Origin: an uncultured Actinomycetes bacterium
GTDB lineage: Bacteria > Actinomycetota > Actinomycetes > S36-B12 > CAIYMF01
Assembly (NCBI GenBank): GCA_963714995.1
Contig: CAVQQP010000003.1
Coordinates: forward strand, 3,425-67,424
Length of the DNA: 64,000 nucleotides
Direction: 5' to 3'
The stretch's first letter is position 1. Each line of letters begins with the position of its first letter. Shown here piece after piece: positions 35,345-57,414 of this stretch. A model generated the notes under the pieces. That model did not search any database. It was given only the letters and a program-made list of their open reading frames with translations, and was not told the origin of the DNA. Position numbers and translations under genes: made by a program.

Positions 35345-36109
35345 ATGCAGTGGCTGGTGCGCGGTGAGGGGCAGGTGCCCACGGGTCAGGACTGGCTGGT
35401 CGGGTCCGAGGCCGCGCGGGCCGCGGGGATGCGCTTCACGAAGCGCCGCAACGAGTACCTCGTGCGCCGGTACGCCGGCAAGTGCGCGGTGGCAGCGGCG
35501 GTCGGGCTCCCGGCTGATCCGATCAGCCTGGGGCGCATCGGCGTGCTCAACCGGATGACCGGCGCGCCCTACGTCGAGGTCGACGGCCAGCCGCTCGGCC
35601 TGGACATCTCCCTGACGGATCGGGCCGGGTGGGCGGTCTGCCTGGTCGGACCCGACCTCGGCGCGGTCGGGGTCGACCTGGAGATCGTCGAGCCGCGCAG
35701 TGCCGGGTTCGTCAGCGACTTCCTGACACCCGCCGAGCAGGCGGTCGTGGCGGGCGCCGAGGGGCCCGACGGACACGACGCAGCGGCCAACCTGATCTGG
35801 TCGGCCAAGGAGAGCGCCCTGAAGGTGCTGCGCACGGGCCTGCGAGCCGACACCCGGACCGTCGAGGTGGTCCTCGAGAGCCCGGCGGGGATCACCGCCG
35901 GGGCACAGCGTGCGGACGGGTGGCAGCGCCTGGCCGTGTCCTCGGGGGCCAGCCGGTTCCCGGGCTGGTGGCGCCGCGACGGGGTGTTCCTGCTCACCAT
36001 GGTCGCCGCGGCGGGTCTGGAGGACCCGCCACTGGCGCTGCCCGGCTCGGCCGACCTGACGACGGCCGAACCGATCCACTCGTGGGTGCACCACCCCCTG
36101 GCCGACTGA
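35345..36109 (+). CDS. Sfp-type 4'-phosphopantetheinyl transferase
   Basis: 'GAPYVEVDG', 'GVDLEIVEPR', 'WSAKESALKVL' (W/KEA motif). Intact, and convergent on the carboxylase-like gene with a 9-nt gap. Confidence 0.85.
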   Translation: MQWLVRGEGQVPTGQDWLVGSEAARAAGMRFTKRRNEYLVRRYAGKCAVAAAVGLPADPISLGRIGVLNRMTGAPYVEVDGQPLGLDISLTDRAGWAVCLVGPDLGAVGVDLEIVEPRSAGFVSDFLTPAEQAVVAGAEGPDGHDAAANLIWSAKESALKVLRTGLRADTRTVEVVLESPAGITAGAQRADGWQRLAVSSGASRFPGWWRRDGVFLLTMVAAAGLEDPPLALPGSADLTTAEPIHSWVHHPLAD

Positions 36110-36118
36110 CCCCGGAAC

Positions 36119-39100
36119 CTACGCGCCCGACTCCTCCTTGGCCATGCCGCGCTCGAGGGCGTCGATGACGTAGGGCCGCAGGTCCGCGGCGGAGATGATG
36201 CGGTCCACCGAGCCCATCTCCAGGGCCCGGTCGATCGTGTGCACCGCATCGAACTCGCTGGCCGCCTCACCGAGCTTCTCCGAGCGCACCTGCTCGGTGA
36301 TCTCGGCCAGCCGCGCACGTCGCTCGGTCGCCTCGGCCCCCGTGGTGCCGGCCAGCAGCTTCTTGGCCGCGACCACGCGGGGATCGGCGTCCACGCGCCC
36401 GCGGACCTCACGGGCGAAGACCGTGGCCGCCGCCGGGGCGCCACCGATCACCGACGCGTACGAGCCCTCGACGGCCACGACCTCCATCTGCGGGTTCAGG
36501 GCCTTGGAGAACACCACGAACGCACCACCGTGGTAGCGCGAGATGACCACGAACACGATCGGGCCCTTGAAGTTGGTGACCGCACGCCCGATCTCGGCGC
36601 CGTACTCCAGCTGCCAGTGCCGCATCGACTCCGGCGACCCGTCGAACCCGGACAGGTTCGCCAGCACGACCAGGGGCCGGTTGCCGCTCGCGGACGTCAC
36701 TGCGCGCGCGGTCTTGCGCGAGGCCTGCGGGAACAGCGTGCCCGAGGTCCAGGACGGCGGGCCGTCGGCCGGGACGAACCCACGGCGGGGGATGGGTCGG
36801 GACTCCAGGCCGAGCATGCAGACACTGATCCCGCCGACGCGCGCATCCCAGACCACGGAGTTCTCGCCCCCGCGCCAGCGCTTCCAGCGCTCCAGCGGCT
36901 CGCAGTCCTGGTCGGTGACCGAGCGCATCACCGAGCGCACGTCGAAGGGCTTCTTGCGCTCCGGGTTGTGCTCGGCAGAGAAGATGTCGCCCACGACCGT
37001 GAAGTCGCAGTCCGGCACCGCGGCGTGCGGGAACGGCCGCACGTCCCTGTTGAGGGGGTCGGTTGTCGCGATCCGGCGCGGGAACCGCTCGCCGGGCTTC
37101 ACGTACGTGTACTCGTAGTGGTGCAGGAGCAGCTGGCACGCGTCCGCCAACGACGGGGCCCAGTACTGCGCCTGCCCGTTGGGGCCCATCACGCGCTCGT
37201 AGCCGCCGATGCCGAAGTTGTCGTCGGCGGACACGCCCCCGGAGAAGTCCAGGGCCTGCTTGCCGGTGAGCACCATGGAGCTGCCCGGGGTCATGATCAG
37301 GATGCCCCGGGTGTGCAGCAGCATCGTGGCCTCGGCGTTCCAGTACGGCTGGCCGCCGACGTTGATGCCGGTCACGACGATGTTGATCTCGCCGCCGGCC
37401 TGGGTGAACTCGATGATCCTGCGCAGCGTGAGCGCGATCCAGTCCATGTTCTCGGTGCCGGACTCCATCGAGATCAGCGCGCCGGAGGAGACCGCGAACC
37501 ACTCGACGGGCACGCCCATCTGCGCGGCCAGGGCCAGGGCCGCGTTGACGATGCGGCACTCCGGCTCGGCGAGGTTGCCCAGGCCGCGGGTCGGGTCGGA
37601 CAGCATGATCACCCGGGTCATGCCCTCGGGGTAGGCCTCGGTGTAGGTGGTGAGCAGCCCGACGACGAGGTTCGAGCTGTTGAGGCCCGGCTCCCGCTCG
37701 ACCGGGATGAGGACCTCGCCGGACTCATCGAGGTCGTGCTCGACGAAGTGGGCGGGCAGGAACTTGCCGACCGTCCCCGGCTGCGGGGCGAACATCCGCA
37801 GGATCTCGAACGGGTAGGGCACCCCGAAGCGCTGGGCAGTCAGCACCTTCTGCCGGTAGCGCGTGAGCGGGCGCACGATGTCGTCGCGGACGGGCTCCTC
37901 GGTGACGGTGATGGCCCCGGTGATGATGCCGTCGACGTTGAACACCGTGGGCGTCAGGGTCCCGTCGGGCTGGGGCATCAGGGTGCGCAGGACGACCAGC
38001 TCCAGGCCGGCGCCGCCGGCGAGCGGGATCATGAGCTCGGCCAGGTCCGACCAGTGCTCCTTGGGCACCGTCCAGGGTGGGCGCACGAACAGCGTGATCC
38101 GGTTGGCCTGGGGTCGTCCCCGCTCCGGGAAGGTCGCGCGGGCGCGGCGCATGGCGATGATCGCCTGCAGGCCCATCCGCTCGAGCGTCGGATACCCGGG
38201 CTGGCCGCCGCGCGAGTCGGGGACGACCGTCATGTCGCGCACCTCGGCCAGGGCGAACAGCCGATGGTCCTTCGGGTTGTCCCGGGCGACGCCGTGGAAC
38301 AGGTAGACGTCCTCCATGGAGGGCAGCCGGGTCAGGTCGAAGTTCTCCAGGCGCCACAGCTCGAGTCGCTTGGCCAGCATCGGGTGCAGGTTGCGGTAGA
38401 AGCGGTCCTCGACCAGGTGCCCGTCCTCGCCGGTCCGGTACGTGAAGTACTGGGTCTGGTTCTCCGGGTCGATGTCGACGGCCAGGCTGGACACCGTCAC
38501 GTCCAGGCGCCAGATCGGTCGGCCGAGTCCCATCCGGCCACGTGCTCGGCGATCACCGCGGAGAGCTCGTCGCCGCTCGGGTGGCTGTCGGGGCGCCAGG
38601 TCATGACGTCGATGACCGGGTTGCGGCTCGGGTCCACGTCGGCCATGTGGGCGGCGACGGCCCGACCCACCGCGCTGATGTCCGAGAACGGCGTGAACGC
38701 CAGGACGACGTGGATCGAACGGCCCTCGAAGTCGTAGTCGGTGTGGCAGAGCATGATGCCCGCGACCTCCTCGACCTTCAGGTCGCGGATCGGGCGGGTC
38801 CGGTACCAGCGCCGGGCGCGGACCTCCAGCAGGGCCGCCTGCAGGTCCTTGTCGGTCGTGGCCATGCGCCGGCGCAGCAGCAGCTTGCGCATCGGCTGGG
38901 GGGCGTCCACCAGGGCTGCGATGCGCTCGGCGCGCTCGGGGCGGTTGGGATCCTCGGCAAGTGCGTCGAGGTGGGCCTCCATGCGGGCCTGCATCTGGGC
39001 GCGACCGGCCTCCACGACCGGCTCGTCGATGAACCGGAACCGTGCGTCCCGGGCGAGGTCGGCCACGGCCTCGAGCTGACCCTGGGTGGAGGCGGTCAGG

Positions 39101-40996
39101 CGGTCGTAGCGGATCCGAGCCGAGTCGTCGACGAACGGCAGGATCCGGTCGCGGTAGCGCAGGCGTCGCTCGAGGATCCCGGTCACCACCCGGGCCAGCT
39201 GCGGACGACGCGCCTGCGAGCCGAACAGCAGCACGACGGCCTGTTCCAGCTCAGGGCTGCGGTGCAGGTCGGTCACGCCGTAGCGGGCCAGGACCTTGGA
39301 CAGGCGGCGCCGCATCTGTACGGGCAGGCCGACGCGGTCCGGGTCCAGCCACTGGATGTAGCCCAGGAGGTACTCGCGGGCGGTGGTCACGACCAGGTCG
39401 GACTGGGGTCCGCTCTCCCGCTCGGACTGCCAGAGCAGGCCGAGGTCGGTGAACAGGTCCAGGAAGCCGTCCTCGGCGGCCAGCAGCTTCGTGTCGCCGG
39501 CGCTGGCGCGGTTGGCGAAGGAGCGCTGCTCGGACAGGAGTGCGGACAGGGACGCGGGGTCGAGCTCATAGCCCAGCAGGTAGCCGCGCAGCGCGGTGTA
39601 GACCCGGTCGAACGGGGGGCGACCCGACGTGTCGGACAGGGCCATGCCGGAGAAGCTGACACGGGAGCCGTTGGTCGGCTGGAGGCCCTTCTCCGCATCC
39701 CCGCGGGTCGCCGGGCGGATCAGCACCAGGGGGGCGCCGGCATCCACCTGCTCGTTGGGCAGCACCTCGACGGAGGTGACCGTGCCGGCGAACGGCGCCC
39801 GGAGGGTGGACTCCATCTTCATCGCCTCGGCGATGACCAGGGGGTCACCCTCGGCCACCTCCTGACCGGGGGCGACGGCGACCGAGACGATGAGCGCCGG
39901 CCACTGCGCACGCACGGCGATGCCCTCGTCGCGGTCGACGCGGTGGGCGATCCCGTCGATCTCCAGCAGGCAGCCGGTCCCGTGCGAGGCGATGACGACA
40001 TGCCGGTCGCGGCCCGCCGCCGTGACGGTCCACTCGAAGTCGTTCTCCCGGTCGATGGCCACCTCGGCCACGGCATCCCCGGAGTCGATGCGGTACGTGT
40101 GCGGCCCCGTCTGGAAGACCCGCAGGGCGTACTGCTGGCCGTCGTAGGTGAGGGTCGTGGACACGCCGGAGGCATCGACCGGCTCCGGGCGTCCCCGGGC
40201 GGCACGGGCATGGAACGCAGCGCGCTGGGTCTCGCGCTGGGAGTCGCTGGCCCGGACCGCCGAGACCAGGACGGCCACCGGGTCGGACTGAGGCCGGGAT
40301 GTCGCGGGGGTCCCGTCGATCTCGGCAGCGACTGCGGCAAGCAGGGCGGTGCGGTTGCAGGCCGAGCCCGCGACCACGACGGCACAGGCCTCCAGGGCAT
40401 GGCGCAGCCGGGTCAGGGCGGTGGCCCGGTCGCGGCCGTGGGCGACGATGCGCAGGGCAACGCCGGAGCCGATGGCGGCACCCACGGCCGCGCGCTCGAC
40501 CACGCGGATCCCCGGTCCCTGCGGCGGGCGCAGGTACAGGACCGGCGCGCCGTCGGGGGCATCGGCCGCGAACAGTCGTGCCTCGACCGCGTGCCCCGAG
40601 GCAGCCGGGGGCTCACCGTCGCGCAAGTGCGGCCAGGTCGATCCCCAGCAGCTCCTCAGCCAGGGCCCACCCGCCCAGGGGTGCGCCGTCCGGTTCGGCG
40701 TCCGGGGTGGCCGCAGGGGTCGGATCCGTGGTGACCGTCAACGCGATGTCGTGGTGGCCGGGACCGCGCTGCTGGGCGGCATCCCGGGCGACCTGGGCGG
40801 CCACCGCAGCGGCGGCAGGGTCCAGCGCGGGACCCTCCACGAGCGACCCCGCCATCAGCCCGGCCCCGGTGAGGGACCGGCAGGCAGGAAGGACCCACGC
40901 GCGACCGCGTGGGTCGACCACAACCGGTACTTCGACCTTCACGACCGCCACCTGCTCTGCCTCGGGTGTCCTCTTGCTCCGACGTGGTGCGCCCAT
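36119..40996 (-). pseudogene. single-chain eukaryote-like acyl-CoA carboxylase homolog: degenerate/truncated BC - BCCP - central region - carboxyltransferase; 2 frame breaks
   Basis: BC remnant 'VKVEVPVVVDPRGRAWVLP...ELLGIDLAALA' | 'RDGEPPAASGHAVEARLFAADAP...GIRVV', biotinyl 'PLVIAEAMKMESTL', central region, | CT 'NIVVTGINVGGQPYWNAEATMLLHTRGILIMT...GISVCMLGLESR...LANLSGFDGSPESMRH...ISRYHGGAFVV'. Breaks near 40620 and 38520. The ATG at 40996 lies 6 nt after the PKS stop. Confidence 0.8.
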
Positions 40997-41002: not shown

Positions 41003-41889
41003 TCAGTCCGCCATCACCGTGCGGATGGGTGCCTGCACATCATCGGCCAAGGGCTGGGGCAGTGTCACGGTGCGGTAGCCCTCCAGGCGGACCAGTACCG
41101 AACCCGAGGCATCGGTGACGAGGCAGTCGAACCCGTCCGGCCCCTGCTGGGCGGTGACGGTCAGCGGACCCTCGGCGGCCTCGCCCGCTGAGCCCAGCAC
41201 GACGGCACGGGTCACGTGCGTGGGCAGGGCCAGGCGGCCCGTCCCGACCGACCTCCCAGAGCCCGGCGGCCTGGAAGCACAGCTCGATCAGGCGGGGTGC
41301 GGCCTGGGTCGGCTGGTCACTCGGGACGTGGTTGGCCGGGAGGTCGGCGGCGAACTGCGCCGCCGAGCGGTCCCCGTCGCGCCACGCGGCGTCGATCACC
41401 TGGTAGGCCGGGCCGTGGAAGTACATCGCGTAGACGTCGTCCGCCGCGCACCTCCGCACCCTGCCGCGCCGGCGGGTCCTGGTGCTCGCCGTCGGGTGCC
41501 GACCTGGTGAGCCGGACGAGCCCGGTGAAGTGCGTCGTCCGGGTCGGGGCGTCGGACCCGGGCAGCTGGCGCTCGGCCTCGATCCGGCACTCGGCCAGCA
41601 GGTCGTCGCCGTCGGGACGCAGCAGGGCGGTGATCTCGATCGTGCGCGGCTCATCGCGGTAGAACTTCAGCGGGGCGAGGAAGTCGACGTCCTCGACGGC
41701 GGCCAGCGACCACTCCGGCGCCAGCAGTCGGGCCACCTCGACCATGCCCTCGATGCCCATCACGCCGGGCAGCAGGGCGGTGACGCGGTCACCTCGGTGG
41801 TCGTCGAGGAACGGCTGCTCCTTCGGGTCCAGCGTGGTGTGCACCGTGATCCCGTAGTTGACGCTGTCGCGCACGACCTCGCCGACCAT
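41003..41889 (-). other. PKS-type (double hot-dog) dehydratase domain
   Basis: '[21 protein letters not shown]' (HxxxGxxxxP), '[15 protein letters not shown]', 'LIELCFQAAGLWEVG'. It contains two of the frame breaks. Confidence 0.7.
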
Positions 41890-41990
41890 CGGGCCGGCCT
41901 GGGCGCACGCCTCGGCGAACGCTGCGGGGTCCACCCCGCCGGTCGGGTCGAACTCGGCGGCCATCATGCCCAGGGTGCCGGCCACCACGA

Positions 41991-43419: not shown

Positions 43420-43617
43420 CGCACCGAGGGTGACCCCGGTGGCGGTGCAGGCGCCCAGGTCGGGGCGCAGGGCCGGGACCGGGACCCGCCGCGGCAGGGC
43501 GTCGACGGCCGCGAAGTCACCGACGAACGCCGGGGCGGTCGCGGCGGCGGTCGTCGCTGCCGGCGCAGCCTCGGCTGCCGGGGCGGCCTCGCCTGCCGCG
43601 GGTGCGGCGGTGGCGGG

Positions 43618-45222: not shown

Positions 45223-45575
45223 CACGACCGGGGCGCTGGGGGCTGCGGCGGGCGCGGCTGCCGGGGCCGCCACCGGGGCGGGGGCGGCGGCGGGTGCCGG
45301 AGCGGGTGCCGCGACCGGGGCAGTTGGCGGGACAGCAGCGAACGCCGCGGCAGGGGCAGCCGGAGCCACGGGGACGGCGGGCGCAGCCGGGGCGGCCGGA
45401 GCGGCGGACGGGGCGCCGGTGTCGACGATGCGCAGTCGGTGATGGTCCACCTCGAGGGTGGCGCCGGCCCGGCCGGCAGCGGCGGCCAGCCAGCGCTCCC
45501 ACGCGGCCGGGTCCACGATCCGGTAGGCATGGCCCAACTCGCTGGGGGCACGACGACGACCGTCGGGCATGGGGG

Positions 45576-48364: not shown

Positions 48365-48795
48365 CGGGGCCGGTCCGCGGCCGACGAACACGCCCTGGGA
48401 GCGCAGCAGCTTCCACATGGCCGGGTTGTTGGCGCCGAACGCGCCGATGGCCTTGTCGGCCTTCTTGGCCAGGTCGGCGGCGTCGGCGTAGTCGATCGCC
48501 ACGCGGATCGCGGCGTCGGCCAGGGCCGGGTCAGGTGCCCCCGGGGCGGGGGTCCGCCCGGCGGCGGCCTCGGCGGCCAGCGCCGTCAGCTGGGCGACCA
48601 CGTCGGCCTCGTCGCGGCCACCGACCACGGCGGCCCCGCGCAGGGGTGCCTTGCGTGCGGCGGGGGCCGCCACCACCGGAGCCGCGGCTGGCGCGGCGGG
48701 CGCGGTGGCGGCGGTGGGCGCGGTGGTCGACCCGGGGATGTCGGCGCCGGCGAACACGCGCGCGGCGTCGGGTGCGCGGTGCCGACCGGGCACGT

Positions 48796-50195: not shown

Positions 50196-50247
50196 CTGTG
50201 TCATGTCATGTCTCCTGGGGGAAGCGCGCGGGGACTGTCAGGAAGGG

Positions 50248-51912
50248 TCAGGCGTACAGCACGTCGGCCAGTGCTGTCATGTCGGAGATGAGACCTGCCT
50301 GTGCGGCGCGGATGGCGTCCAGCCGCAGGGTGCTCGGCAGGGTGGCGGTCAGGCCGAGGCTGGGGTCGGCGGAGCCGATGACCCAGCGCATGCCCTCCTC
50401 GCCGGCCTTCATCGCGGCCTCGCGGGCGAAGACCCGGGCGATGATGGCCAGGGCGTCGGCGTCGAAGCGCCGGTTGGCCTTCTCCGCCAGCGTCCCGTCG
50501 GCGGCAGCCGCGGCACGCCGGCACAGCGCACCGGCACACTCCACGTTGGCCACCAGCTCGCCGAGGCGGAACAGCACGTGCTGGTTGCGCGTGAGCCGAC
50601 CGGCCTGGCATGCCGAGAAGACCCCGGCCAGGGCCTCGAACGCCAGCGCGGAGACGTCAGCCCCGACCTTCGGGCTGCGGGCGTGCAGGGCGCTCATCTC
50701 CTGGGCGGCAGCCAGGTAGTAGCCGCCGCGGGACTTCAGGTGCTCCTGCCAGCGGTCGCGGGCGATGGTCATCTCGAGGATCTCGGAGGTGCCCTCGTAG
50801 ATCGTCGTGATCCGCACGTCGCGCTTGATCTTCTCGACCGTGTACTCGCGGGTGAACCCGTAGCCGCCGAGGGCCTGGATGGCATCCTCGGCCGCCCGGT
50901 TGCCGGACTCGGTGGCCAGGTACTTGGCGATGGCGCCCTCGGTGTTCAGCGCGCCGTCGGGGCCCTCACCGGCGTCGATGCGCGTGGAGGTCTCCTCGAT
51001 GAAGGCGCGCGCGGCCTCGAGGCGGGCGACGTGCGGGACGATCAGCTTGTGGGTGTAGCCCTGCTTCTCGGCCAGCGGTGACCCGCCGGAGATGCGCGTC
51101 TTGGAGTACTCGATCGCGCGGTCGACGGCCTCCCAGCCGCCGCCGAGGCCGAACGCGGCCACCATCACGCGGGTGTAGCCGAAGACCTGCTGGGCCTGCA
51201 CGAGGCCCTTGCCCTCGACGCCGCCGATCATGTTCTCGATCGGCACCTCGACGTTGTCCAGGTACAGCGCCGCGGTGTTCGACAGCCGGATGCCGTGCTT
51301 GTCCTCGGGCTTGGCGCTGGTGAAGCCCTCGGTGCCCTTCTCCAGGACGAACCAGGTCGGCCCGCCGGGGGCCAGGGCCAGGATCGTGGTGGCGTCGGCG
51401 ATCGTGCCGTTGGAGATCCACTGCTTGGCGCCGGTGATCCGGTAGCCGGTGACCTCGCCGTCGACCTCGATCGGGACCGCCTTGGTCTTCATCGCGCCCA
51501 GGTCGGAGCCGGCCTCGGGCTCGGTGGCGCCGTACGCGAACACCATGCCGTCCTCGGCGATCGCCCCCAGCCACTTCTCCTTCTGCTCCTCGGTCGCGCC
51601 GACCAGGATCGGGTCGCTGCCCAGGAAGGTCGCGAAGATCGCGGTGGCCAGGCCGATGTCCTTGCGGGCCATGACCTCGCAGAGCAGGTAGGAGTCGAAC
51701 GCCCCGCCGCCCATGCCGCCGTAGGCCTCAGGGACGAAGACCAGCTGGATGCCCAGGTCGGTCGACATCGCGCGCACCGTGTCCTCGGGGCAGATGTCCT
51801 CGTGGTCGAGCTCCAGCTGGCGCTCGGGCGGCAGCGCATCGGAGAGGTACTCCTTCAGGCCGTCCAACATCAGGCCGAGCGTCTCGGCGTCCAGCCCCTG
51901 ATCAGTGTTCAT
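50248..51912 (-). CDS. acyl-CoA dehydrogenase family protein with about 170-aa C-terminal extension
   Basis: 'FAYGATEPEAGSD', 'ITGAKQWISNG', 'GYGFTREYTVEKIKRDVRITTIYEGTSEI'. AGGAGG precedes the ATG. Intact. It ends 43 nt upstream of the PKS start. Confidence 0.9.
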   Translation of the reverse strand: MNTDQGLDAETLGLMLDGLKEYLSDALPPERQLELDHEDICPEDTVRAMSTDLGIQLVFVPEAYGGMGGGAFDSYLLCEVMARKDIGLATAIFATFLGSDPILVGATEEQKEKWLGAIAEDGMVFAYGATEPEAGSDLGAMKTKAVPIEVDGEVTGYRITGAKQWISNGTIADATTILALAPGGPTWFVLEKGTEGFTSAKPEDKHGIRLSNTAALYLDNVEVPIENMIGGVEGKGLVQAQQVFGYTRVMVAAFGLGGGWEAVDRAIEYSKTRISGGSPLAEKQGYTHKLIVPHVARLEAARAFIEETSTRIDAGEGPDGALNTEGAIAKYLATESGNRAAEDAIQALGGYGFTREYTVEKIKRDVRITTIYEGTSEILEMTIARDRWQEHLKSRGGYYLAAAQEMSALHARSPKVGADVSALAFEALAGVFSACQAGRLTRNQHVLFRLGELVANVECAGALCRRAAAAADGTLAEKANRRFDADALAIIARVFAREAAMKAGEEGMRWVIGSADPSLGLTATLPSTLRLDAIRAAQAGLISDMTALADVLYA

Positions 51913-52059: not shown

Positions 52060-53511
52060 TCAGACCGGGGCAAGTCCGGCGAGCAGGTGCTCGACGACCT
52101 TGCGGGCCGGGTACGGACCTCCGCCGGACCCGTTCGAGGCCAGTGCGTGGACCGCCCGGAAGTCGTCGCCGGAGGTGACGATCGCGGGCTCGGTGGACCC
52201 GTCCGGACGTTGCTGGGGGAGGTCGGCGGCCGCGAGCAGGGCGTTGCACAGGCACTTGCGGCCCTCGGCGTTCGCAGCCCGACCCCCCTTGCGGGTGTAC
52301 ATCGCCAGCGGCTCGGCGGGGCAGCGGTAGTCGATCTCGCCGTTGGCCTTCTTGTACGGCGTGCGCAGGGCGCCGAGGTCGCACACGGCCTTGCGGGCGG
52401 CGGCGACCTCCGGGTCGCTCACCGTGCCCTCGAGCTGGATGACCCGGAACGGGAACCCGGTCGGGGAGGCCCGCCAGTCGCTGCGGACGTCCAGGGTCCC
52501 GGCCAGGACCTCGCTGAGCACCTGGCGCTTGAGCGAGTCGGCCAGCCCGGACTCCGCGCTGTAGGCGAAGGCCGTGCCGACCTGGACCCCCTGGGCGCCG
52601 GCAGCCTTGGCCTGGGCCAGGCCCTCGGGGGTGCCGTACGCGCCGGCCAGCCAGAACGGCAGCCCGACCGCCGCCACGGCGCTGAGGTCGACGGAGTCGC
52701 GCTCGTCGTAGACCGGCTGGCCGAGATCGTCCACCCGCCGGGGGCCGCGTGGCGGGGCGTTGTGCCCGCCGGCGCTCGGCCCCTCGACGATGAACCCGAA
52801 CGGGCGGGTCGCCGGGTCCCCGGCCAGGCCGGCGGCGAGGTCCACCGACGCGATGATGGCCAGGAACCGGGGCAGGGGCAGGTCGCGGCCAGCATCGCCG
52901 AGGAGCTCGGTCGGGCTGCAGCGCACCGTGACCGGGGCGTCGTCGGAGCGCAGGCCCTGGGCCCGGACGCCGAAGTCGAGGTCCTCCCCGTTGGCCAGCG
53001 AGCGGATCATGCCCGGGATCTCCGCCGGGTTCCCGGCGCCGATCAGCACGTAGTCGACGCCCGCGAGCATGGCCCCGAGCAGGCCGAAGGGCAGCGGGAT
53101 CTCGATCTTGCGCAGGAAGTTGATCCCGACCGGGCCGCTGTGCTCCTGCTTGGCCAGCCAGACCTCGCAGAACGAGCCGACGATCGTCAGCTCCTGCAGG
53201 GCCACCGGCGGGGTGATCGTGAACCGTGGGACGGCCTTGAACGCCGCGTCCGGAGCCTTGCCGCCGTGGATGTAGTACTGCTTCATCACCCGCAGGGCCA
53301 TCGCCGGGATCGGGAAGGCGGCCAGCGCCCTGCGCATGTGGCCACCGGGATCGCCGGCCTGCAGGCGCCGGGCGCACACCACGTCCAGCGCGGTGCCGGA
53401 GACCACTCCCAGCTCGCCGGCCTGGCAGACGGCCCGGGCCAGCTCCCACCCGGAGACGGCCACCCCCATCCCGCCCTGGATGATCGTGGGAAGGACGTCC
53501 TGGTCGTTCAT
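52060..53511 (-). CDS. nitronate monooxygenase-fold protein (PfaD/FabK-like trans-enoyl reductase candidate)
   Basis: 'IIQGGMGVAVSGWELARAV..AGELGVVSG', 'GAGNPAEIP', 'EGPSAGGHN', 'AGAQGVQVGTAF'. Intact. Confidence 0.8.
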   Translation of the reverse strand: MNDQDVLPTIIQGGMGVAVSGWELARAVCQAGELGVVSGTALDVVCARRLQAGDPGGHMRRALAAFPIPAMALRVMKQYYIHGGKAPDAAFKAVPRFTITPPVALQELTIVGSFCEVWLAKQEHSGPVGINFLRKIEIPLPFGLLGAMLAGVDYVLIGAGNPAEIPGMIRSLANGEDLDFGVRAQGLRSDDAPVTVRCSPTELLGDAGRDLPLPRFLAIIASVDLAAGLAGDPATRPFGFIVEGPSAGGHNAPPRGPRRVDDLGQPVYDERDSVDLSAVAAVGLPFWLAGAYGTPEGLAQAKAAGAQGVQVGTAFAYSAESGLADSLKRQVLSEVLAGTLDVRSDWRASPTGFPFRVIQLEGTVSDPEVAAARKAVCDLGALRTPYKKANGEIDYRCPAEPLAMYTRKGGRAANAEGRKCLCNALLAAADLPQQRPDGSTEPAIVTSGDDFRAVHALASNGSGGGPYPARKVVEHLLAGLAPV

Positions 53512-53551: not shown

Positions 53552-53569
53552 ACCTACGCTGACGTAGGT
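53552..53569. promoter_or_regulatory. 18-bp palindrome ACCTACG-CTGA-CGTAGGT, 41-58 nt upstream of the enoyl-reductase start
   Basis: Read directly. It overlaps the stop codon of the upstream hydrolase ORF. A role as an operator is inference only. Confidence 0.3.
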
Positions 53570-55869
53570 ACGCCAGCCCCTGATCGCCGCAGGGGACGCT
53601 GCGACCGGCGCGAGGGCCGGCCCGCGAGGGGTGCGCGGGCGTGACCCGGGAGGCGTGGACCGGGAGGGATGGCCGATCCGGTGGCGTCTCTGGCGGCGGT
53701 GGTGGTGCGGGCCCGGAGTCGATCCGGGTCACCTCGACGACCGGGTGTGATGTTGGTCACATCCGGTCGTCGGTGAGGTGGGACGAGGGTGGGTGCACGG
53801 GTGGGGCGCGGGTGGGTGCGTCGCGGAGCCGTCAGCCCGAGGATCCCGACGATCCGATCCTGGCGAACAGCGCCGGAGATGTCCCCGCGGGCCAGCTTCG
53901 CGGTGGACTCGTCGTCCATGTCCACGGACTTCGGGTCCACGCCCCACTTCTGCAGCTGGCCGACCACCGAGGCCCGTGCGGAGGCGAACTTGTTGGCGAC
54001 CATCCGCCGGGCGGCCCACTCCCGCTCCCGGGCGCGCAGCGCCGCCTCGATCCGCTCGACCTGCTCCGGACTCGCCGGCAGGCCGTACGTGTGCCGGATC
54101 GCGTCGCACAGCTCGATCCGGTAGTCGTGGCCGAGGCGGACGAACTCGCCGGGCTTGGAGTTCATCCCGTTCTTCAGGTCGACCAGCGTGATGACGAACG
54201 TCGTGATCGGGCGGAACGAGGTCTCGCGGGGCACCCTGGGGGGGCGCGTCTCCGGGGGCCCCATCCACCAGGGTGCGCGCACGACGGCGTCGTAGGAGAA
54301 CTTGTTGATCGGGTCGTCGTGATGGATGACCTGCACATGCCGGACCGACGGGGCCAGGGAGGGGATCTCGTCGGCCTGGGCCACCGCGCCCAGGATCCCG
54401 GCCGGATCGGCGGCGCCGGGGTCCGCGAACCACCGGTCCCACAGCGCGGTCCGGAACGGCGTGCCCAGGTACAGCCCCCGATCCAGGCCGAGCTCGTCGA
54501 AGTGGCGAGTCCCCTCGGCCGCCACATCGAGGGCCACCTGGGCGCCCAGGCTCTCCCCGAACTGCAGCAGGCGGGGTCGGGAGCCCTCCGGCATCGCCGC
54601 GATCCGGTCGCGGATCCCCGCCAGGATCAGCGTCTGCATCCGGACCCCGGCGTCGGTCTGGTTCAGGGCCAGCGCGCTGGGGACCAGCGCGTACTGGGGC
54701 ACCACGATGGCGCAGTCGCCCCGGGTCAGGTACTCCAGCGCCTCGGCGAACGAGTAGTTCACGTAGCCGACGCCCGTGGGGGCTGCGACGACGATCACGG
54801 ACTTCTCGTAGGCCCCCAGGGCGTCGAGCTCGGAGAGGGCCAGGTCGGCCCGGGTCTCGGGGGTCCGCGCGCTCTCGAAGCCGGCAACGGCCCGGATCGG
54901 ATCGACGGCCGGTTCGCCCATGAGCTCGGCGATCTCGTCGGCGCCCAGCGTCATCAGGACGAACCGCCGGCCCTCCTTGCCGATGTCATCGAACGCGATC
55001 AGGCTCGCCGGGCCCGCGGTCACCGACCGGCTGGTCGGGGGGTCCGGGTAGGCCGCCTCCACCACGTCGTCGGCGTGCTGGATCCGCCGGCGCAGGCGGT
55101 CGAGCGCGGCGATCCCGGCCGGGACCATGAGGGCGGCGGCGATCGAGTGGCCGACGAGCGGGGTGACCCGGTCCTCGCTGCGGCCCAGGGCGCGGCTGAC
55201 CAGCGCGGTCGAGCCCTCGGCCAGGGCGTACTCGGTGCCGGCGAGGGCCATCAGGCCGGCACCGACCGATCCGCCGAGCGCCGCCGACCGGGCGATCCCC
55301 GCGGCGGTCGTGGGTCGCTGGATCTGGTGACGGTCCCCGGTCTCGCCGACGGCCAGCGCGCGTCGGTCGCGGGCGTTGACCCGGATCGCGGAGATGGTGC
55401 CGCCGATCGCGGCCGCCGTGGCCATCCCCAGCGCCGGGCCCGCGGGCCCGATCAGCCGGCGCGTGGCCTTGTCGGAGGTGATCACCAGCGCGGCTGCCGC
55501 GGCTCCACCGCCGAGGAGGCGGGCCGCGGAGTTCGCGGCAGCGACCGGCAGTGGGGTGGCGCTGGTGTTGGGCAGGAGTCGGGTCCCGGCGAATCCGACC
55601 CCGGCCACGATCACCGCGGCGATGAGCGTGCTGTTCTCCGGATCCCCGGCGCCGCGGGAGGTGGCCACCAGCTCGGCCGTTGCCTCGACCGCCGACACCG
55701 CCAGGGTGCCGATCCCGAGGCCGAGGGCGGCCGTCACCCCGGTGGCCATGGCCTGGTCGGTCGTCGAGCGCGGCAGCAGCCCGCGGGCGAACGTGTTGGA
55801 CGTGACGGCGGCAGCGGCGGTCACACCCGTGCGCAGCGCCAGGTACCGCCGTCCGGATCGAGGGGCCAT
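53554..55869 (-). CDS. polytopic membrane alpha/beta hydrolase (Abhydrolase_9-like: N-terminal membrane domain plus C-terminal hydrolase)
   Basis: Gly/Ala-rich helices over the first 300 aa or so, then 'VVAAPTGVGYVN', 'LLQFGESLGAQV' (GxSxG), 'VIHHDDPINKF'. Start at MAPRSG (55869). The last 100 codons or so are R/P-rich and may not be native. Confidence 0.7.
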   Translation of the reverse strand: MAPRSGRRYLALRTGVTAAAAVTSNTFARGLLPRSTTDQAMATGVTAALGLGIGTLAVSAVEATAELVATSRGAGDPENSTLIAAVIVAGVGFAGTRLLPNTSATPLPVAAANSAARLLGGGAAAAALVITSDKATRRLIGPAGPALGMATAAAIGGTISAIRVNARDRRALAVGETGDRHQIQRPTTAAGIARSAALGGSVGAGLMALAGTEYALAEGSTALVSRALGRSEDRVTPLVGHSIAAALMVPAGIAALDRLRRRIQHADDVVEAAYPDPPTSRSVTAGPASLIAFDDIGKEGRRFVLMTLGADEIAELMGEPAVDPIRAVAGFESARTPETRADLALSELDALGAYEKSVIVVAAPTGVGYVNYSFAEALEYLTRGDCAIVVPQYALVPSALALNQTDAGVRMQTLILAGIRDRIAAMPEGSRPRLLQFGESLGAQVALDVAAEGTRHFDELGLDRGLYLGTPFRTALWDRWFADPGAADPAGILGAVAQADEIPSLAPSVRHVQVIHHDDPINKFSYDAVVRAPWWMGPPETRPPRVPRETSFRPITTFVITLVDLKNGMNSKPGEFVRLGHDYRIELCDAIRHTYGLPASPEQVERIEAALRAREREWAARRMVANKFASARASVVGQLQKWGVDPKSVDMDDESTAKLARGDISGAVRQDRIVGILGLTAPRRTHPRPTRAPTLVPPHRRPDVTNITPGRRGDPDRLRARTTTAARDATGSAIPPGPRLPGHARAPLAGRPSRRSQRPLRRSGAGVPTSA

Positions 55870-55898: not shown

Positions 55899-56396
55899 TC
55901 AGCCGGCGTGCCGTCGGGCCAGGACCCGTGCCTGCACCGACAGGATCCAGCCGACGAGGTCCTTGTCGATCATCGACTGGACCTTGCCCGCCAGGGGGAA
56001 GGGCAGTGACGCCTTCGTGCTCGTCGAGGTCGCCAGGGTCGAGCCGTCGTCGGCGACGAGCAGCTGCGACGTGCCCAGCGAGGTGGCCTTGGGTGAGCCG
56101 AGAAGGTGCACCTCGAGCGTGCCCTCGGAGCCCTCGTCGGTCAGCGGACCCCACTCCTGCATCCAGGACAGGCGGACCTCGCCCGGCAGCAGCTTCTGCG
56201 CCAGCTCGGGGATCCCGGGCTTGGAGGTGGAGAACCGCCACTGCATCGTCGCCACCGCGCGCTCACCGGAGCTGTCGCAGGTCAGGGAGTCGACCTCGAC
56301 GCCCACCTCCGTGGCGAAGGCGTGCAGGAAGTCCTCGCTGATCAGGTCGGCGTGCACCGTGGCGGGCGAGATGGACAGATCGAAGCTGTGTTCCAC
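55899..56396 (-). CDS. DUF2505 / SRPBCC-fold protein
   Basis: 'VEHSFDLSISPATVHADLISEDFLHAF...' fits the family length and pattern. The GTG start at 56396 is assumed; ATG at 56456 or 56552 is possible. Confidence 0.6.
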   Translation of the reverse strand: MEHSFDLSISPATVHADLISEDFLHAFATEVGVEVDSLTCDSSGERAVATMQWRFSTSKPGIPELAQKLLPGEVRLSWMQEWGPLTDEGSEGTLEVHLLGSPKATSLGTSQLLVADDGSTLATSTSTKASLPFPLAGKVQSMIDKDLVGWILSVQARVLARRHAG

Positions 56397-56523
56397 GGGG
56401 TCATTGTGGCGGGTCCGGGGCGCAGGCGGGCCACCAACACGGTCCCGGGGCTGCATGGGTGCCTGCCTCGGGCTAGCGTCGGGCGCCAAGGCAGTGCCCG
56501 CCACCAGCCGCGAAAGGGTCGCG

Positions 56524-57414
56524 ATGAGCCCCTCCGACGAGACGTCCCACACGGATCTGCCGAACTACCCGCTGAGTCTGGCCCGCGCGGTGGCACCGTG
56601 GAAGCGCTCGGCGAACGCGACCACCGTCCTGCCCGAGTCGGAGTCCATGGTCACCGGCTGGCGGCCGGACCGCGAGCGGCTCGCGGCCTACCGATCCCTG
56701 GTGGGCTCCGGTGCGGAGATCCCGATCGCCTTCCCGCAGCTGCCGATCATGGCGCTGCACATCGACCTGCTGTCCCGGTGGTCGTTCCCTGTCCGGGCAC
56801 TGGGCCTGATCCACCAGGGGGCCGTCATCGACGTCCTCGACGACGTGCCGGTCGGCGGGCCCTGGGACGTGCGGGCTGCCGTGTCGGAGGGTCGGCATGT
56901 GCGCGCGGGGCTCGAGTTCGACGTCTCCGGCGAGGTGAGCGTCGGTGGTGCCCTCTGCTGGCGCTCCACGTCGACCTACCTCTCCCGCAGCCGCTCGGCC
57001 AGCGGTGCCGAGGAGTCGGCCGTCCCGCAGCTCGACTCCTCCGGGGAGTGGGAGGCCGAGGTCGGGATCCCGGTGGCCGAGGGGACCGGGCGCGCGTTCG
57101 GCCGGGTGACCGGGGACATCAACCCCATCCACATGCACGCCGTGCCGGCCAAGGCCTTCGGGTTCCCGCGGGCGATCGCGCACGGCTGGTGGACCACCGG
57201 GCGCGCTGCCGCGGAGCTCGGCGTCGACGAGGCCGTCCCCGGCCGCCGGCTGCAGATCGCCTTCAGGCGGCCGATCGTGCTGCCGTCCACGCCCGTCCTG
57301 TGCTCGCGGTCCGCGGCGTCCGGCGGCGTCGAGTTCGCGCTGTTCCCGGTGTCGCCCGCGGCAGGCGGGGACGATCCGGTGCGGGCGCTGGTCGCGGGGA
57401 TCGTCACCGGCTGA
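56524..57414 (+). CDS. MaoC-like double hot-dog (R)-hydratase/dehydratase
   Basis: 'FGRVTGDINPIHMHAVPAKAFGFPRAIAHGWW' hydratase-2 motif in the C-terminal half. It occupies only the last 297 codons of the 1257-aa ORF 53641..57414. Confidence 0.8.
   Translation: MSPSDETSHTDLPNYPLSLARAVAPWKRSANATTVLPESESMVTGWRPDRERLAAYRSLVGSGAEIPIAFPQLPIMALHIDLLSRWSFPVRALGLIHQGAVIDVLDDVPVGGPWDVRAAVSEGRHVRAGLEFDVSGEVSVGGALCWRSTSTYLSRSRSASGAEESAVPQLDSSGEWEAEVGIPVAEGTGRAFGRVTGDINPIHMHAVPAKAFGFPRAIAHGWWTTGRAAAELGVDEAVPGRRLQIAFRRPIVLPSTPVLCSRSAASGGVEFALFPVSPAAGGDDPVRALVAGIVTG

What the first reader, a model, noticed from the sequence alone, without database searches (positions are those of the whole stretch)
35345..57414. 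Self-contained PfaA-like secondary-lipid cluster with a non-canonical KS-AT-KS-(carrier)5-KR-DH megasynthase
An NMO/PfaD-like reductase, an acyl-CoA dehydrogenase, a 9.2 kb megasynthase and a 4.9 kb carboxylase homolog are packed head-to-tail on the minus strand, with gaps of 6 to 147 nt. They converge on an Sfp-type PPTase. A membrane alpha/beta hydrolase, a DUF2505/SRPBCC protein and a divergent MaoC dehydratase lie immediately upstream. KS1 ('DTMPGELANIMAGRV..TDAACAS'), the HAFH malonyl-type AT, the tandem carriers, the KR and the PKS-type DH all resemble PfaA of PUFA synthases. The order differs, though. A second complete KS (Cys 'NAACASTTQ', His 'AFHGT' and 'FTGHAMGAG') with an insertion of about 240 aa sits between the AT and the carriers. 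I see no CLF, no FabA-type DH pair and no PfaB/PfaC equivalents. An ACAD and an ACC-like enzyme are embedded in the operon. I do not recall a characterised synthase with this composition, so the product is more likely a non-PUFA specialised lipid.
Basis: partly seen in the sequence, partly recalled or inferred. Interest (0 to 1): 0.8.

Follow-up and report, generated by a model that had tools for sequence, protein, structure and literature searches.

The report
Uncharacterised two-ketosynthase lipid synthase operon
This is a real copy of a widespread gene cluster for a giant fatty-acid/polyketide-type enzyme that was catalogued in 2011 but has never been studied in the lab, and all of its acyl-carrier domains carry a threonine where every known carrier has the essential serine.

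Summary
The megasynthase reads KS-AT-KS-(carrier)5-KR-DH (3064 aa) only after seven single-base insertions are removed. The carboxylase homolog (1625 aa) needs two corrections. The indels are private to this window and also hit flanking genes. dN/dS stays at 0.09-0.15, so they are most likely assembly errors.

The architecture is not new. It matches the "Type R" secondary-lipid cluster of Shulse & Allen (2011), whose product is unknown. At least 588 species genomes carry it. The conserved core is ACAD, megasynthase, eukaryote-like ACC and PPTase. The NMO, hydrolase, DUF2505 and MaoC genes occur only in this window's clade.

KS2 keeps an invariant Cys/His/His triad and resembles FabF, so it is not a CLF. 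The NMO protein is not of the PfaD family. The ACC homolog lacks a working biotin carboxylase.

The best reading is a self-contained iterative FAS-like synthase that makes an unknown non-PUFA acyl lipid, with enoyl reduction supplied in trans. Relatives in Asgard archaea and Desulfobacter fuse a FabK-like ER and a PPTase to the same megasynthase.

One unexpected result: every carrier domain has Thr at the phosphopantetheine-Ser position. The counts are 252/252 in related loci and 298 Thr versus 9 Ser across the family.

The parts
41003..50204 (-). Megasynthase KS1-AT-KS2-(carrier)5-KR-DH. It reads as 3064 aa after seven single-base insertions are removed (49941, 46039, 44580, ~44283, 43948, 41449, 41241).
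   Evidence: Pfam on the ORF pieces. tblastn of intact homologs shows the frame changes. DNA alignment to L002, L004 and L005 locates the window-private insertions. Corrected translation. Single-ORF homologs P0134 (3076 aa) and P0128 (2851 aa) have the same domain order.
48794..50192 (-). KS1 (PfaA-like ketosynthase). Cys216, His350 and His390 are invariant.
   Evidence: Pfam ketoacyl-synt and Ketoacyl-synt_C. Best NCBIfam match is TIGR02813 PfaA, below its cut-off. Triad conserved in 93/93 sequences.
47489..48406 (-). Acyltransferase with GHSLGE and HAFH motifs (malonyl type).
   Evidence: Pfam Acyl_transf_1, E 3e-42. Ser715 is present in 93/93 sequences and His817 in 92/93. That HAFH signals malonyl specificity is established knowledge.
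45568..47083 (-). KS2, a second catalytically complete ketosynthase. It is FabF-like and its N-terminal half is longer by about 88 residues.
   Evidence: Cys1288 is present in 93/93 sequences; His1396, His1475 and Lys1470 in 92/93. phmmer against PDB gives FabF 4ddo at E 1e-27. NCBIfam fabF scores 135 bits, aligning residues 228-498 with model positions 140-403.
43621..45228 (-). Five tandem carrier (ACP-like) domains at 44986-45228, 44659-44901, 44319-44561, 43967-44209 and 43621-43863. Each has [11 protein letters not shown], with Thr at the phosphopantetheine-Ser position. The Thr codons are at 45115-45117, 44788-44790, 44448-44450, 44096-44098 and 43750-43752.
   Evidence: TRF finds a 346-nt period with 4.7 copies. 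Coordinates. Alignment to solved ACPs places the Thr on the Ser. Family-wide counts.
42121..42789 (-). Ketoreductase catalytic subdomain ([13 protein letters not shown]).
   Evidence: Pfam KR, E 2.7e-27. Motif positions.
41006..41892 (-). PKS-type (double hot-dog) dehydratase.
   Evidence: Pfam PKS_DH_N in the window. PS-DH in the intact orthologs.
36119..40996 (-). ACC-like protein, 1625 aa after two corrections (insertion at 40623, deletion at 38526). Its parts are a vestigial BC C-terminal remnant, a BCCP with the AMKM motif, the ACC central region and a carboxyltransferase. It has no Biotin_carb_N and no ATP-grasp domain.
   Evidence: Pfam. Intact orthologs of 1630 and 1610 aa have the same domain content. 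L001 and L087 carry the full 1851-1862 aa version that includes BC. dN/dS is 0.135.
35345..36109 (+). Sfp-size 4'-phosphopantetheinyl transferase (254 aa), convergent with the operon.
   Evidence: Pfam ACPS, E 2.8e-13. A homolog was detected in 37 of the 83 related loci, typically just beyond the ACC gene. In P0176, P0279 and P0161 the PPTase is fused to the megasynthase.
50248..51912 (-). Acyl-CoA dehydrogenase family flavoprotein (554 aa), 43 nt upstream of the megasynthase.
   Evidence: Pfam Acyl-CoA_dh_N, _M and _1. Present directly upstream in 70 of 70 related loci that have enough flank. Best NCBIfam match is acryloyl-CoA reductase AcrC, below its cut-off.
52060..53511 (-). NMO-family flavoprotein (483 aa), a candidate trans-acting enoyl reductase. 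It is an accessory found only in this clade.
   Evidence: Pfam NMO, E 3e-14. The only NCBIfam hit is FabK at 31 bits, with no PfaD family hit. Present in only 9 of 83 loci.
53554..55860 (-). Membrane alpha/beta hydrolase (Abhydrolase_9 with its N-terminal domain), found only in this clade. An insertion at 53872 alters its C-terminus.
   Evidence: Pfam. The L002 ortholog is 678 aa. Found in 6 of 83 loci.
55899..56458 (-). DUF2505 (SRPBCC-like) protein, found only in this clade.
   Evidence: Pfam DUF2505, E 3e-15. Synteny with L002.
56524..57414 (+). MaoC-like dehydratase, transcribed divergently, found only in this clade.
   Evidence: Pfam MaoC_dehydratas, E 2e-11. Synteny with L002.

Best explanation
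The locus is a functional-type member of the widespread 'Type R' family of PfaA-like secondary-lipid synthase operons. In this assembly it is garbled by single-base errors.

Shown here:
- One polypeptide carries two catalytically complete ketosynthases (PfaA-like KS1 and FabF-like KS2), a malonyl-type AT, five tandem carriers, a KR and a PKS-type DH.
- It is always preceded by an ACAD-family flavoprotein.
- It is almost always followed by a eukaryote-like single-chain ACC homolog. A PPTase gene was detected in 37 of 83 loci, typically just beyond the ACC gene.

Inferred:
- The enzyme works iteratively, like a type I FAS or PfaA. The AT loads malonyl units onto the carriers. KS1 and KS2 divide the condensations between them, probably by chain length as the two KS of PUFA synthases do. 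KR and DH process each beta-keto group.
- The enoyl intermediate is reduced in trans by a flavoenzyme. Across the family that would be the ACAD, which many relatives pair with EtfAB and an EtfD-like Fe-S protein. In this clade the standalone NMO/FabK-like protein is an additional candidate.
- The product is a long, mostly reduced acyl chain, not a PUFA. It may be released by the clade-specific membrane hydrolase.
- The carriers are activated by the cluster's PPTase on the invariant Thr.
- The ACC homolog of this clade has lost its biotin carboxylase. It cannot by itself make malonyl-CoA from bicarbonate and ATP, so it must either use a BC supplied in trans or act as a transcarboxylase or decarboxylase.
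For: Domain calls and motifs.

Intact, collinear orthologs at 88% DNA identity.

Single-ORF family members with the same domain order.

Synteny across 83 related loci:
- ACAD directly upstream in 70/70
- ACC carboxyltransferase downstream in 53/54
- PPTase detected in 37 loci
- EtfAB in 28/70

The literature description of Type R matches in domain order, in the PPTase and in the ACC gene of Koribacter (PMC3098273).

Rosetta-stone evidence for a complete FAS loop:
- Heimdallarchaeal and Desulfobacter members fuse a FabK-like ER at the N-terminus (107 and 73 bits to TIGR03151) and a PPTase at the C-terminus of the same KS-AT-KS-ACP-KR-DH core.
- ACC or biotin functions are linked to the megasynthase in four independent contexts.
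- A PlsY-like acyltransferase lies beside the Heimdall copy.

A multidomain ACC of this type supplies malonyl-CoA for fatty acid synthesis in Saccharopolyspora (PMC6491548).

Purifying selection on the frame-corrected genes: dN/dS 0.09-0.15, the same as for the intact neighbours.

The window-private indels also break flanking genes, an RNase III-like gene at 57902 and an alpha-amylase gene at 34547 and 34300. The closest relatives are Nanopore soil MAGs.
Against: - No member of the family has a known product, and I found no biochemical study.
- No ER domain lies in cis. Nothing shows that the ACAD or the NMO protein reduces enoyl-carrier thioesters. An ACAD coupled to an Etf/EtfD chain normally runs in the oxidative direction.
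- The window's NMO protein shows no detectable similarity to the fused ER of the archaeal and Desulfobacter members.
- The carriers have Thr, and no PPTase is known to modify Thr.
- The ACC homolog lacks BC, so 'self-contained malonyl-CoA supply' fails for this clade.
- No thioesterase domain is present.
- The nine frameshifts could be real.
Confidence: 0.6

Rival explanations
1. The cluster is a decaying pseudogene remnant. The nine frameshifts in the megasynthase and the carboxylase are real, and nothing is made.
For: Seven frame changes in the megasynthase and two in the ACC homolog are private to the window. Three of them sit at equivalent positions in successive carrier linkers, and the unit lengths are 340, 352 and 346 nt, each 1 mod 3. 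The public gene call P0001 (1795 aa, 100% identical) follows the broken frame, so the indels are in the deposited record.
Against: - There are no in-frame stop codons once the single bases are removed.
- dN/dS of the corrected genes is 0.11-0.15, the same as the intact ACAD and NMO genes at 0.09-0.10.
- GC3 stays at 0.9-0.99 throughout.
- Similar single-base indels also interrupt unrelated flanking genes, at 57902, 53872, 34547 and 34300.
- The closest relatives come from Nanopore-assembled MAGs, which are prone to such errors.
Confidence: 0.12
2. The synthase works without enoyl reduction and makes a conjugated polyene or a polyhydroxy/polyene chain, as enediyne PKSE (KS-AT-ACP-KR-DH-PPTase) does. 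The ACAD then acts as a dehydrogenase or tailoring enzyme that passes electrons to Etf/EtfD.
For: There is no cis ER. The KS-AT-carrier-KR-DH(-PPTase) order resembles PKSE, and some members have a C-terminal PPTase. Etf and an EtfD-like Fe-S protein next to the ACAD point to an oxidative electron path. That PKSE products are polyenes is established knowledge.
Against: - A FabK-like ER is fused to the same core in Heimdall, Desulfobacter and other members.
- Linkage to ACC and biotin genes and to PlsY fits bulk fatty-acid supply.
- PKSE has no second KS and no tandem carriers.
- The best model match is PfaA.
Confidence: 0.15
3. KS2 is a terminal Claisen condensing domain like Pks13. The ACC-like protein carboxylates or transcarboxylates a long acyl-CoA, and KS2 joins it head-to-head with the chain built by KS1. 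The result would be a branched beta-keto or mycolic-like lipid, or a long ketone.
For: The two complete KS domains have very different lineages. The carboxyltransferase is highly conserved (57-97% identity) while BC decays in about half of the lineages, which fits a role other than plain acetyl-CoA carboxylation. The analogy with AccD4 and Pks13 is established knowledge.
Against: There is no FAAL or FadD32-like activating enzyme in the locus. The only characterised multidomain ACC of this architecture showed no activity on palmitoyl-CoA (PMC6491548). No specific evidence supports this reading; it is speculation.
Confidence: 0.07
4. It is an ordinary PUFA (EPA, DHA or ARA) synthase, or a heterocyst-glycolipid-type synthase.
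For: KS1-AT and KR-DH match PfaA (TIGR02813) best. Tandem carriers are typical of PfaA and HglE.
Against: - The score is below the PfaA cut-off, 760 against 1010.
- The locus and its relatives have no PfaB, no PfaC, no FabA-type DH pair, no PfaD-family ER and no HglC or HglD equivalents.
Confidence: 0.03

Closest known systems
'Type R' secondary-lipid synthase clusters (Shulse & Allen 2011, PLoS One 6:e20146; Koribacter, Solibacter, Elusimicrobium, Roseiflexus)
   Same: - A single pfaA homolog with KS-MAT-(second KS-like domain)-ACP(3-6)-KR.
- A PPTase gene next to it, and an ACC gene between the two in Koribacter.
- Product unknown.
- Acidobacterial relatives of the window gene (Terriglobales, Bryobacteraceae) show the same layout.
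   Different: - The paper labels the second domain CLF. Here it has an invariant Cys/His/His triad.
- The paper does not report the upstream ACAD or the Etf genes, the C-terminal DH, the Thr in the carriers or the loss of BC.
- This clade adds NMO, Abhydrolase_9, DUF2505 and MaoC genes.
- I did not compare sequences directly with the five reference genomes.
PUFA synthase PfaA/PfaC (pfaABCDE)
   Same: - KS-AT-tandem carriers-KR-DH order, as in PfaA.
- Best profile match is TIGR02813.
- Two KS activities per system. In DHA synthases the two KS have different chain-length specificities (title and abstract of PMC11962503).
   Different: - Both KS domains are on one chain, and the second is FabF-like with a full triad rather than a KS-CLF pair.
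- There are no FabA-type DH domains, no PfaB and no PfaD-family ER.
- Carriers have Thr, not Ser.
- The score is below the family cut-off.
Eukaryote-like multidomain ACC of actinobacteria (SACE_4237, Livieri et al. 2019, PMC6491548)
   Same: - BCCP, ACC central region and CT on a single chain.
- Full-length versions (1851-1862 aa) including BC lie beside the megasynthase in L001 and L087.
- Found in the same actinobacterial families.
   Different: - The window's protein (1625 aa) has no Biotin_carb_N or ATP-grasp, only a sub-threshold Biotin_carb_C remnant.
- Orthology to SACE_4237 was not tested.
- I did not establish whether SACE_4237 lies next to such a synthase.
Enediyne iterative PKS (PKSE: KS-AT-ACP-KR-DH-PPTase)
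   Same: An iterative, PfaA-related core without a cis ER. Some family members carry a C-terminal PPTase.
   Different: PKSE has one KS, one carrier with Ser, and no linked ACAD or ACC. The phylogenetic relation was not tested.
FabK / PfaD-type FMN enoyl reductases, and ACAD-EtfAB-EtfD electron chains
   Same: The NMO fold, with FabK as its best match. The FabK-like ER fused in archaeal and Desulfobacter members covers model positions 4-266 of 307. The ACAD with EtfAB and a CCG-domain Fe-S protein resembles the mycobacterial EtfAB/EtfD system (own knowledge).
   Different: The window's NMO protein is very divergent (31 bits) and shows no detectable similarity to the fused ER. No activity is known for either flavoprotein.

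Membership tests
Type R secondary-lipid synthase cluster (Shulse & Allen 2011) | One pfaA homolog with the order KS-MAT-second KS-like domain-ACP(3-6)-KR | tested here: met
   KS1-AT-KS2-(carrier)5-KR-DH in the frame-corrected gene. Single-ORF homologs show the same order.
Type R secondary-lipid synthase cluster (Shulse & Allen 2011) | PPTase gene adjacent to the synthase, with an ACC gene between them in the Koribacter form | tested here: met
   PPTase at 35345-36109 and ACC-like at 36119-40996. The same arrangement is seen in related loci: ACC CT in 53/54 and a PPTase detected in 37 of 83.
Type R secondary-lipid synthase cluster (Shulse & Allen 2011) | Proximal KS groups with the Type R reference sequences in a KS tree | not tested
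   No reference sequences from Koribacter, Solibacter, Roseiflexus or Elusimicrobium were fetched. The only support is indirect: Acidobacteriota relatives at 56-62% identity share the architecture.
PUFA synthase (pfaABCDE) | PfaA scoring above the curated TIGR02813 cut-off | tested here: not met
   760 bits against a cut-off of 1010 for the KS-AT part, and 274 bits for the KR-DH part.
PUFA synthase (pfaABCDE) | PfaC (KS-CLF with two FabA-type DH domains) and PfaB (AT) encoded in the cluster | tested here: not met
   None in the window locus or in the syntenic loci.
PUFA synthase (pfaABCDE) | PfaD-family enoyl reductase (TIGR02814) | tested here: not met
   The window's NMO protein gives no TIGR02814 hit at E<=0.01 and only 31 bits to FabK.
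Chain length factor (CLF) | A KS-like domain that has lost the active-site Cys | tested here: not met
   KS2 Cys1288 is present in 93/93 sequences, and His1396 and His1475 in 92/93. KS2 is therefore a complete KS, not a CLF.
Acyl carrier protein (PP-binding) | Conserved Ser in the DSL-type motif as the phosphopantetheine attachment site | tested here: not met
   All five copies have [11 protein letters not shown]. The Thr aligns with the Ser of PigH, Streptomyces and Aquifex ACPs. Counts are 252/252 Thr in related loci and 298 Thr versus 9 Ser across 150 family representatives. The fold and the rest of the motif are those of an ACP.
Biotin-dependent acetyl-CoA carboxylase (eukaryote-like single chain) | Biotin carboxylase (Biotin_carb_N plus ATP-grasp) | tested here: not met
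   Only a sub-threshold Biotin_carb_C remnant is found, at 20.5 bits against a cut-off of 32.4. Only 6 nt separate the megasynthase stop from the ACC start, so there is no room for a BC domain. Intact orthologs of 1630 and 1610 aa lack it too.
Biotin-dependent acetyl-CoA carboxylase (eukaryote-like single chain) | BCCP with the biotinyl-Lys motif, the ACC central region and a carboxyltransferase | tested here: met
   Biotin_lipoyl at E 7.5e-14 with EAMKME, ACC_central at E 1e-12 and Carboxyl_trans at E 6e-32.
Enediyne PKSE | KS-AT-ACP-KR-DH-PPTase on one chain with a single KS and a single ACP | tested here: not met
   The window gene has a second KS, five carriers and a separate PPTase gene.

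The most novel reading that the evidence does not exclude
The tandem carriers of this family are phosphopantetheinylated on threonine by their dedicated PPTase, which is adjacent in some members and fused in others. If so, this would be, to my knowledge, the first natural Thr-linked 4'-phosphopantetheine.

The family as a whole, (FabK-like ER)-KS-AT-KS-carrier(n)-KR-DH-(PPTase) with linked ACC functions, would then be a distinct, self-contained type of fatty acid synthase. It would be shared by soil Actinomycetota, Acidobacteriota, Desulfobacterales and Asgard and Thermoplasmatota archaea. In bacteria it would be coupled to the eukaryote-like single-chain ACC.
Probability: 0.35. Interest if true: 0.8.

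Novelty: new member of a known kind. Interest (0 to 1): 0.55.

Why it matters
- This synthase family is among the most widespread large uncharacterised FAS/PKS-type enzymes of soil bacteria. At least 588 species genomes carry it. Fifteen years after it was catalogued it still has no known product, so any member with intact, cultured relatives is a route to finding a new lipid class.
- The invariant Thr at the carrier attachment site challenges the rule that phosphopantetheine is always attached to Ser. It can be tested directly by mass spectrometry.
- The repeated loss of the biotin carboxylase from an otherwise strongly conserved ACC homolog points to an unrecognised role for the BCCP, central and CT module.
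- The same megasynthase sits beside ACC subunits and PlsY in Heimdallarchaeia, so the family may bear on how Asgard archaea make fatty acids.
- The ACC partner is of the eukaryote-like type, which bears on the origin of that enzyme.
- For this particular window the practical message is a caution. The frameshifts are most likely assembly errors, so an intact ortholog should be used for any experiment.

Tried and rejected
- AlphaFold2 model of KS2 from a 7-sequence alignment. Mean pLDDT was 43.6, too poor for a fold search. Only a helical hairpin at KS2 residues 158-211 was confident. The size of the 'insertion' was taken from profile coordinates instead.
- GC3-phase segmentation of the whole window to count frameshifts outside the cluster. 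The method could not tell frameshifts from adjacent genes, so I used direct DNA alignment to three relatives.
- Similarity of the window's NMO protein to the ER fused in Heimdall and Desulfobacter megasynthases. There were no blastp or phmmer hits. The link holds only at Pfam-family level, so I do not claim orthology.
- CDP-alcohol phosphatidyltransferase or PlsY as general neighbours. They were found only in L001, L087 and L084, so I rejected them as a conserved feature.
- Look-up of P0001 and P0187 in the contig index gave nothing on record.
- Literature searches found no paper on later characterisation of Type R, on Thr phosphopantetheinylation or on a Heimdall megasynthase.
- L053 (Nostocoides australiense) gave no tblastn hits for any query although it was listed as a match. 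It is partly masked, with 4% N, and I did not pursue it.
- The reading frame of carrier linkers 3-4 and 4-5 could not be settled, because several indels lie within a roughly 40-nt segment absent from relatives. The linker residues of the corrected protein are approximate.

Full report
**What is in the sequence.**
The window is about 72% G+C. Codon-position GC shows continuous minus-strand coding from about 36.1 to 56.5 kb, with several frame changes. Pfam on the ORF pieces gives this order in the direction of transcription:

| Gene | Coordinates | Strand |
|---|---|---|
| DUF2505 | 55899-56458 | - |
| Abhydrolase_9 | 53554-55860 | - |
| NMO | 52060-53511 | - |
| ACAD | 50248-51912 | - |
| Megasynthase | 41003-50204 | - |
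| Carboxylase homolog | 36119-40996 | - |
| PPTase (convergent) | 35345-36109 | + |
| MaoC (divergent) | 56524-57414 | + |

**Frameshifts.**
The megasynthase is spread over three frames. tblastn with intact homologs and DNA alignment to three collinear relatives (L002, L004, L005) locate single-base insertions private to the window at 49941, 46039, 44580, ~44283, 43948, 41449 and 41241. In the carboxylase gene there is an insertion at 40623 and a one-base deletion at 38526. Removing or restoring these bases gives uninterrupted proteins of 3064 and 1625 aa.

Comparable single-base indels also hit unrelated flanking genes. These are an RNase III-like gene at 57902, the hydrolase C-terminus at 53872, and an alpha-amylase gene at 34547 and 34300. 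dN/dS against L002 is 0.11-0.15 for the corrected megasynthase and 0.135 for the carboxylase homolog. The intact ACAD and NMO genes give 0.10 and 0.09. The closest relatives are Nanopore-assembled soil MAGs of the 'MFD' series. I therefore read the frameshifts as assembly errors, about 0.8 likely, rather than gene decay.

The carrier array has a 346-nt period, and three unit lengths are 1 mod 3. This explains the rotating frames. Linkers 3-4 and 4-5 also contain a roughly 40-nt segment that the relatives lack.

**Domain anatomy.**
- KS1-AT and KR-DH match PfaA (TIGR02813) best but fall below its cut-off, at 760 bits against 1010.
- The AT has GHSLGE and HAFH.
- KS2 has Cys1288, His1396 and His1475. 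Cys1288 is invariant in 93 family members and each His is present in 92 of 93.
- The C-terminal 270-320 residues of KS2 align with FabF (PDB 4ddo, E 1e-27; NCBIfam fabF, 135 bits).
- KS2 residue 228 corresponds to FabF model position 140. The N-terminal half is therefore about 88 residues longer than in FabF, not 240.
- KS2 is thus a complete ketosynthase, not a CLF.
- The NMO protein is a divergent NMO/FabK-like flavoprotein and not a PfaD-family member.
- The carboxylase homolog has a BCCP with AMKM, the ACC central region and a CT. It has only a sub-threshold remnant of the BC C-terminal domain and no ATP-grasp. Intact orthologs of 1630 and 1610 aa show the same content.

**Relatives and synteny.**
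- The KS1-AT-KS2 region has homologs at 57-91% identity over 96% of its length in Actinomycetota, Acidobacteriota, Deltaproteobacteria and others. Most are 'partial', because the carrier repeats break short-read assemblies.
- A scan of one genome per species with a KS2 alignment found at least 588 genomes.
- A KS2 profile found 820 representative proteins at E<=1e-30.
- Single-ORF members of 2851-3076 aa have exactly KS-AT-KS-carriers-KR-DH.
- In 83 loci an ACAD lies directly upstream in 70 of 70 cases with enough flank.
- The ACC-type CT lies downstream in 53 of 54, and a PPTase homolog was detected in 37 of the 83 loci, typically just beyond the ACC gene.
- EtfB, EtfA and a CCG-domain Fe-S protein lie upstream of the ACAD in 24-28 of 70. 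This holds in both Actinomycetota and Acidobacteriota.
- NMO (9 loci) and Abhydrolase_9, DUF2505 and MaoC (6 loci) are confined to the window's own clade.
- The BC domain is full in 22 loci, divergent in 4 and vestigial or absent in 27. The CT stays 57-97% identical throughout.

**Comparison with what is known.**
Shulse & Allen 2011 (PMC3098273) defined 'Type R' secondary-lipid clusters in Koribacter, Solibacter, Elusimicrobium and Roseiflexus. The definition is one pfaA homolog, KS-MAT-CLF-ACP(3-6)-KR, followed by a PPTase, with an ACC gene in between in Koribacter. The product is uncharacterised. The window locus fits this description. Its acidobacterial relatives show both the form with ACC and the form without it (L078, L079, L081, L082). 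I did not compare sequences with the five reference genomes.

I found no later characterisation. The ACC partner belongs to the architecture class of SACE_4237, the eukaryote-like multidomain ACC that supplies malonyl-CoA for fatty-acid synthesis in Saccharopolyspora erythraea (PMC6491548).

**Clues to function.**
- Members from Heimdallarchaeia (P0279, 3515 aa), Desulfobacter (P0270, 3896 aa) and at least 12 other representatives carry an N-terminal FabK-like enoyl reductase. It scores 107 and 73 bits over most of TIGR03151.
- Several members also carry a C-terminal PPTase.
- In those members the single chain therefore contains a full FAS reductive loop.
- ACC or biotin functions are linked to the megasynthase in four independent contexts:
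  - a fused ACC in bacteria;
  - CT, BCCP, BC and a biotin ligase in Heimdallarchaeum, next to a PlsY-like acyltransferase;
  - BioY, BC and BCCP in a Thermoplasmatota MAG.
- The ER-fused Desulfobacter and Heimdall loci have no adjacent ACAD. The ER-less actinobacterial and acidobacterial forms always have one.
- This is compatible with the ACAD, often together with Etf, standing in for the ER. That remains inference only.

I conclude that the family is an iterative FAS-like synthase making a mostly reduced acyl chain of unknown structure. The polyene rival and the Pks13-like condensation rival remain open.

**An unexpected feature.**
All five carriers read [16 protein letters not shown]. phmmer against solved structures puts the Thr exactly on the phosphopantetheinyl-Ser of the PigH, Streptomyces and Aquifex ACPs. 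The counts are:
- every carrier in the 120 closest homologs has Thr;
- 252 of 252 motifs in 83 loci have Thr;
- among 150 diverse representatives there are 298 Thr and 9 Ser.

At least six of the nine Ser cases are from Heimdallarchaeota (P0161 and P0210); the source organisms of the other three (P0228, P0260) were not identified. P0210 mixes Ser, Thr and Ser in one chain. The S/T interchange at this one position suggests that the Thr is the attachment residue. So does the conserved or fused PPTase: P0176 has Thr carriers and a fused PPTase. The domain calls and motif scans I ran turned up no other Ser-type carrier in the megasynthase or its neighbours. I found no report of Thr phosphopantetheinylation in the library searched. 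That canonical PfaA carriers use Ser is from my own knowledge.

**Verdict.**
The cluster is a new member of a catalogued but biochemically unknown family rather than a new architecture. Four of the genes counted as part of it are clade-specific accessories. Interest is moderate to high. It rests on the unknown product of a very widespread family, the Thr carriers, the BC-less ACC homolog and the archaeal relatives.

Noticed in passing
window 45115-45117, 44788-44790, 44448-44450, 44096-44098, 43750-43752 (minus strand): Each of the five carrier domains has Thr ([11 protein letters not shown]) at the position of the phosphopantetheinyl-Ser. The Thr is nearly invariant across the whole family: 252/252 in 83 loci, and 298 Thr versus 9 Ser in 150 representatives. 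At least six of the nine Ser cases are from Heimdallarchaeota.
   Followed up: yes
window 57902, 53872, 34547, 34300; also 49941, 46039, 44580, ~44283, 43948, 41449, 41241, 40623, 38526: The window carries private single-base indels relative to three collinear relatives, about one per 2 kb. They break not only the megasynthase and the ACC homolog but also an RNase III-like gene and an alpha-amylase gene. This looks like long-read assembly error.
   Followed up: yes
window 43900-43945 and 44240-44285 (carrier linkers 4-5 and 3-4): Both linkers contain a roughly 40-nt segment (GTCGAAACCGACCAC..GGAATCGAC..) that is absent from L002, L004 and L005. It could encode [15 protein letters not shown]. 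The repeat units are 340, 352 and 346 nt, each 1 mod 3. The true reading frame of these linkers is unresolved.
   Followed up: partly
window 39976-40996 (N-terminal ~340 aa of the ACC homolog); loci L002-L010, L024, L026, L039-L041 and others: The biotin carboxylase domain of the synthase-linked ACC is vestigial or absent in about half of 53 related loci from several lineages. The carboxyltransferase stays 57-97% identical and is under purifying selection.
   Followed up: partly
L084 (Ca. Heimdallarchaeum endolithica CP084167.1, 557389-587936): An Asgard archaeon encodes the same megasynthase family as one 3515-aa chain: FabK-like ER, KS, AT, KS, three Ser carriers, KR, DH and PPTase. It is flanked by a PlsY-like G3P acyltransferase, a biotin ligase, a carboxyltransferase, an alpha/beta hydrolase, a BCCP and a BC.
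   Followed up: partly
L086 (Thermoplasmatota MAG, GCA_964365265.1) and L085 (Desulfobacter, ERZ21862645): The archaeal Thermoplasmatota copy (3055 aa, Thr carriers) is followed by BioY, BC and BCCP. The Desulfobacter copy (3896 aa) has the fused ER, a PPTase gene directly downstream, and no ACAD or ACC nearby.
   Followed up: partly
L001, L017, L018, L021, L024, L026, L033, L036, L043, L070, L071, L076, L078, L081, L082 (upstream of the ACAD): EtfB, EtfA and a Fer4/CCG-domain (EtfD-like) oxidoreductase lie upstream of the ACAD-synthase pair in both Actinomycetota and Acidobacteriota. In the window's clade an NMO-family gene occupies that place instead.
   Followed up: partly
window 564-27235: The rest of the window encodes ordinary, unrelated functions: an amidohydrolase, an Abhydrolase_3 esterase, a LOG/lysine-decarboxylase-like protein, a GNAT, an SDR, an MpaB/Lcp-type oxygenase (18580-19542), a peptidase S58, a pyridine-nucleotide disulfide oxidoreductase, a STAS-domain protein and a transglutaminase-like protein. 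Several stretches lack clean ORFs, possibly for the same indel reason.
   Followed up: partly
L053 (Nostocoides australiense Ben110, NZ_HG764815.1): This locus was listed as a 73% match to KS2 but gave no tblastn hit for any cluster protein in my scan. The locus is 4% N. Unexplained.
   Followed up: no
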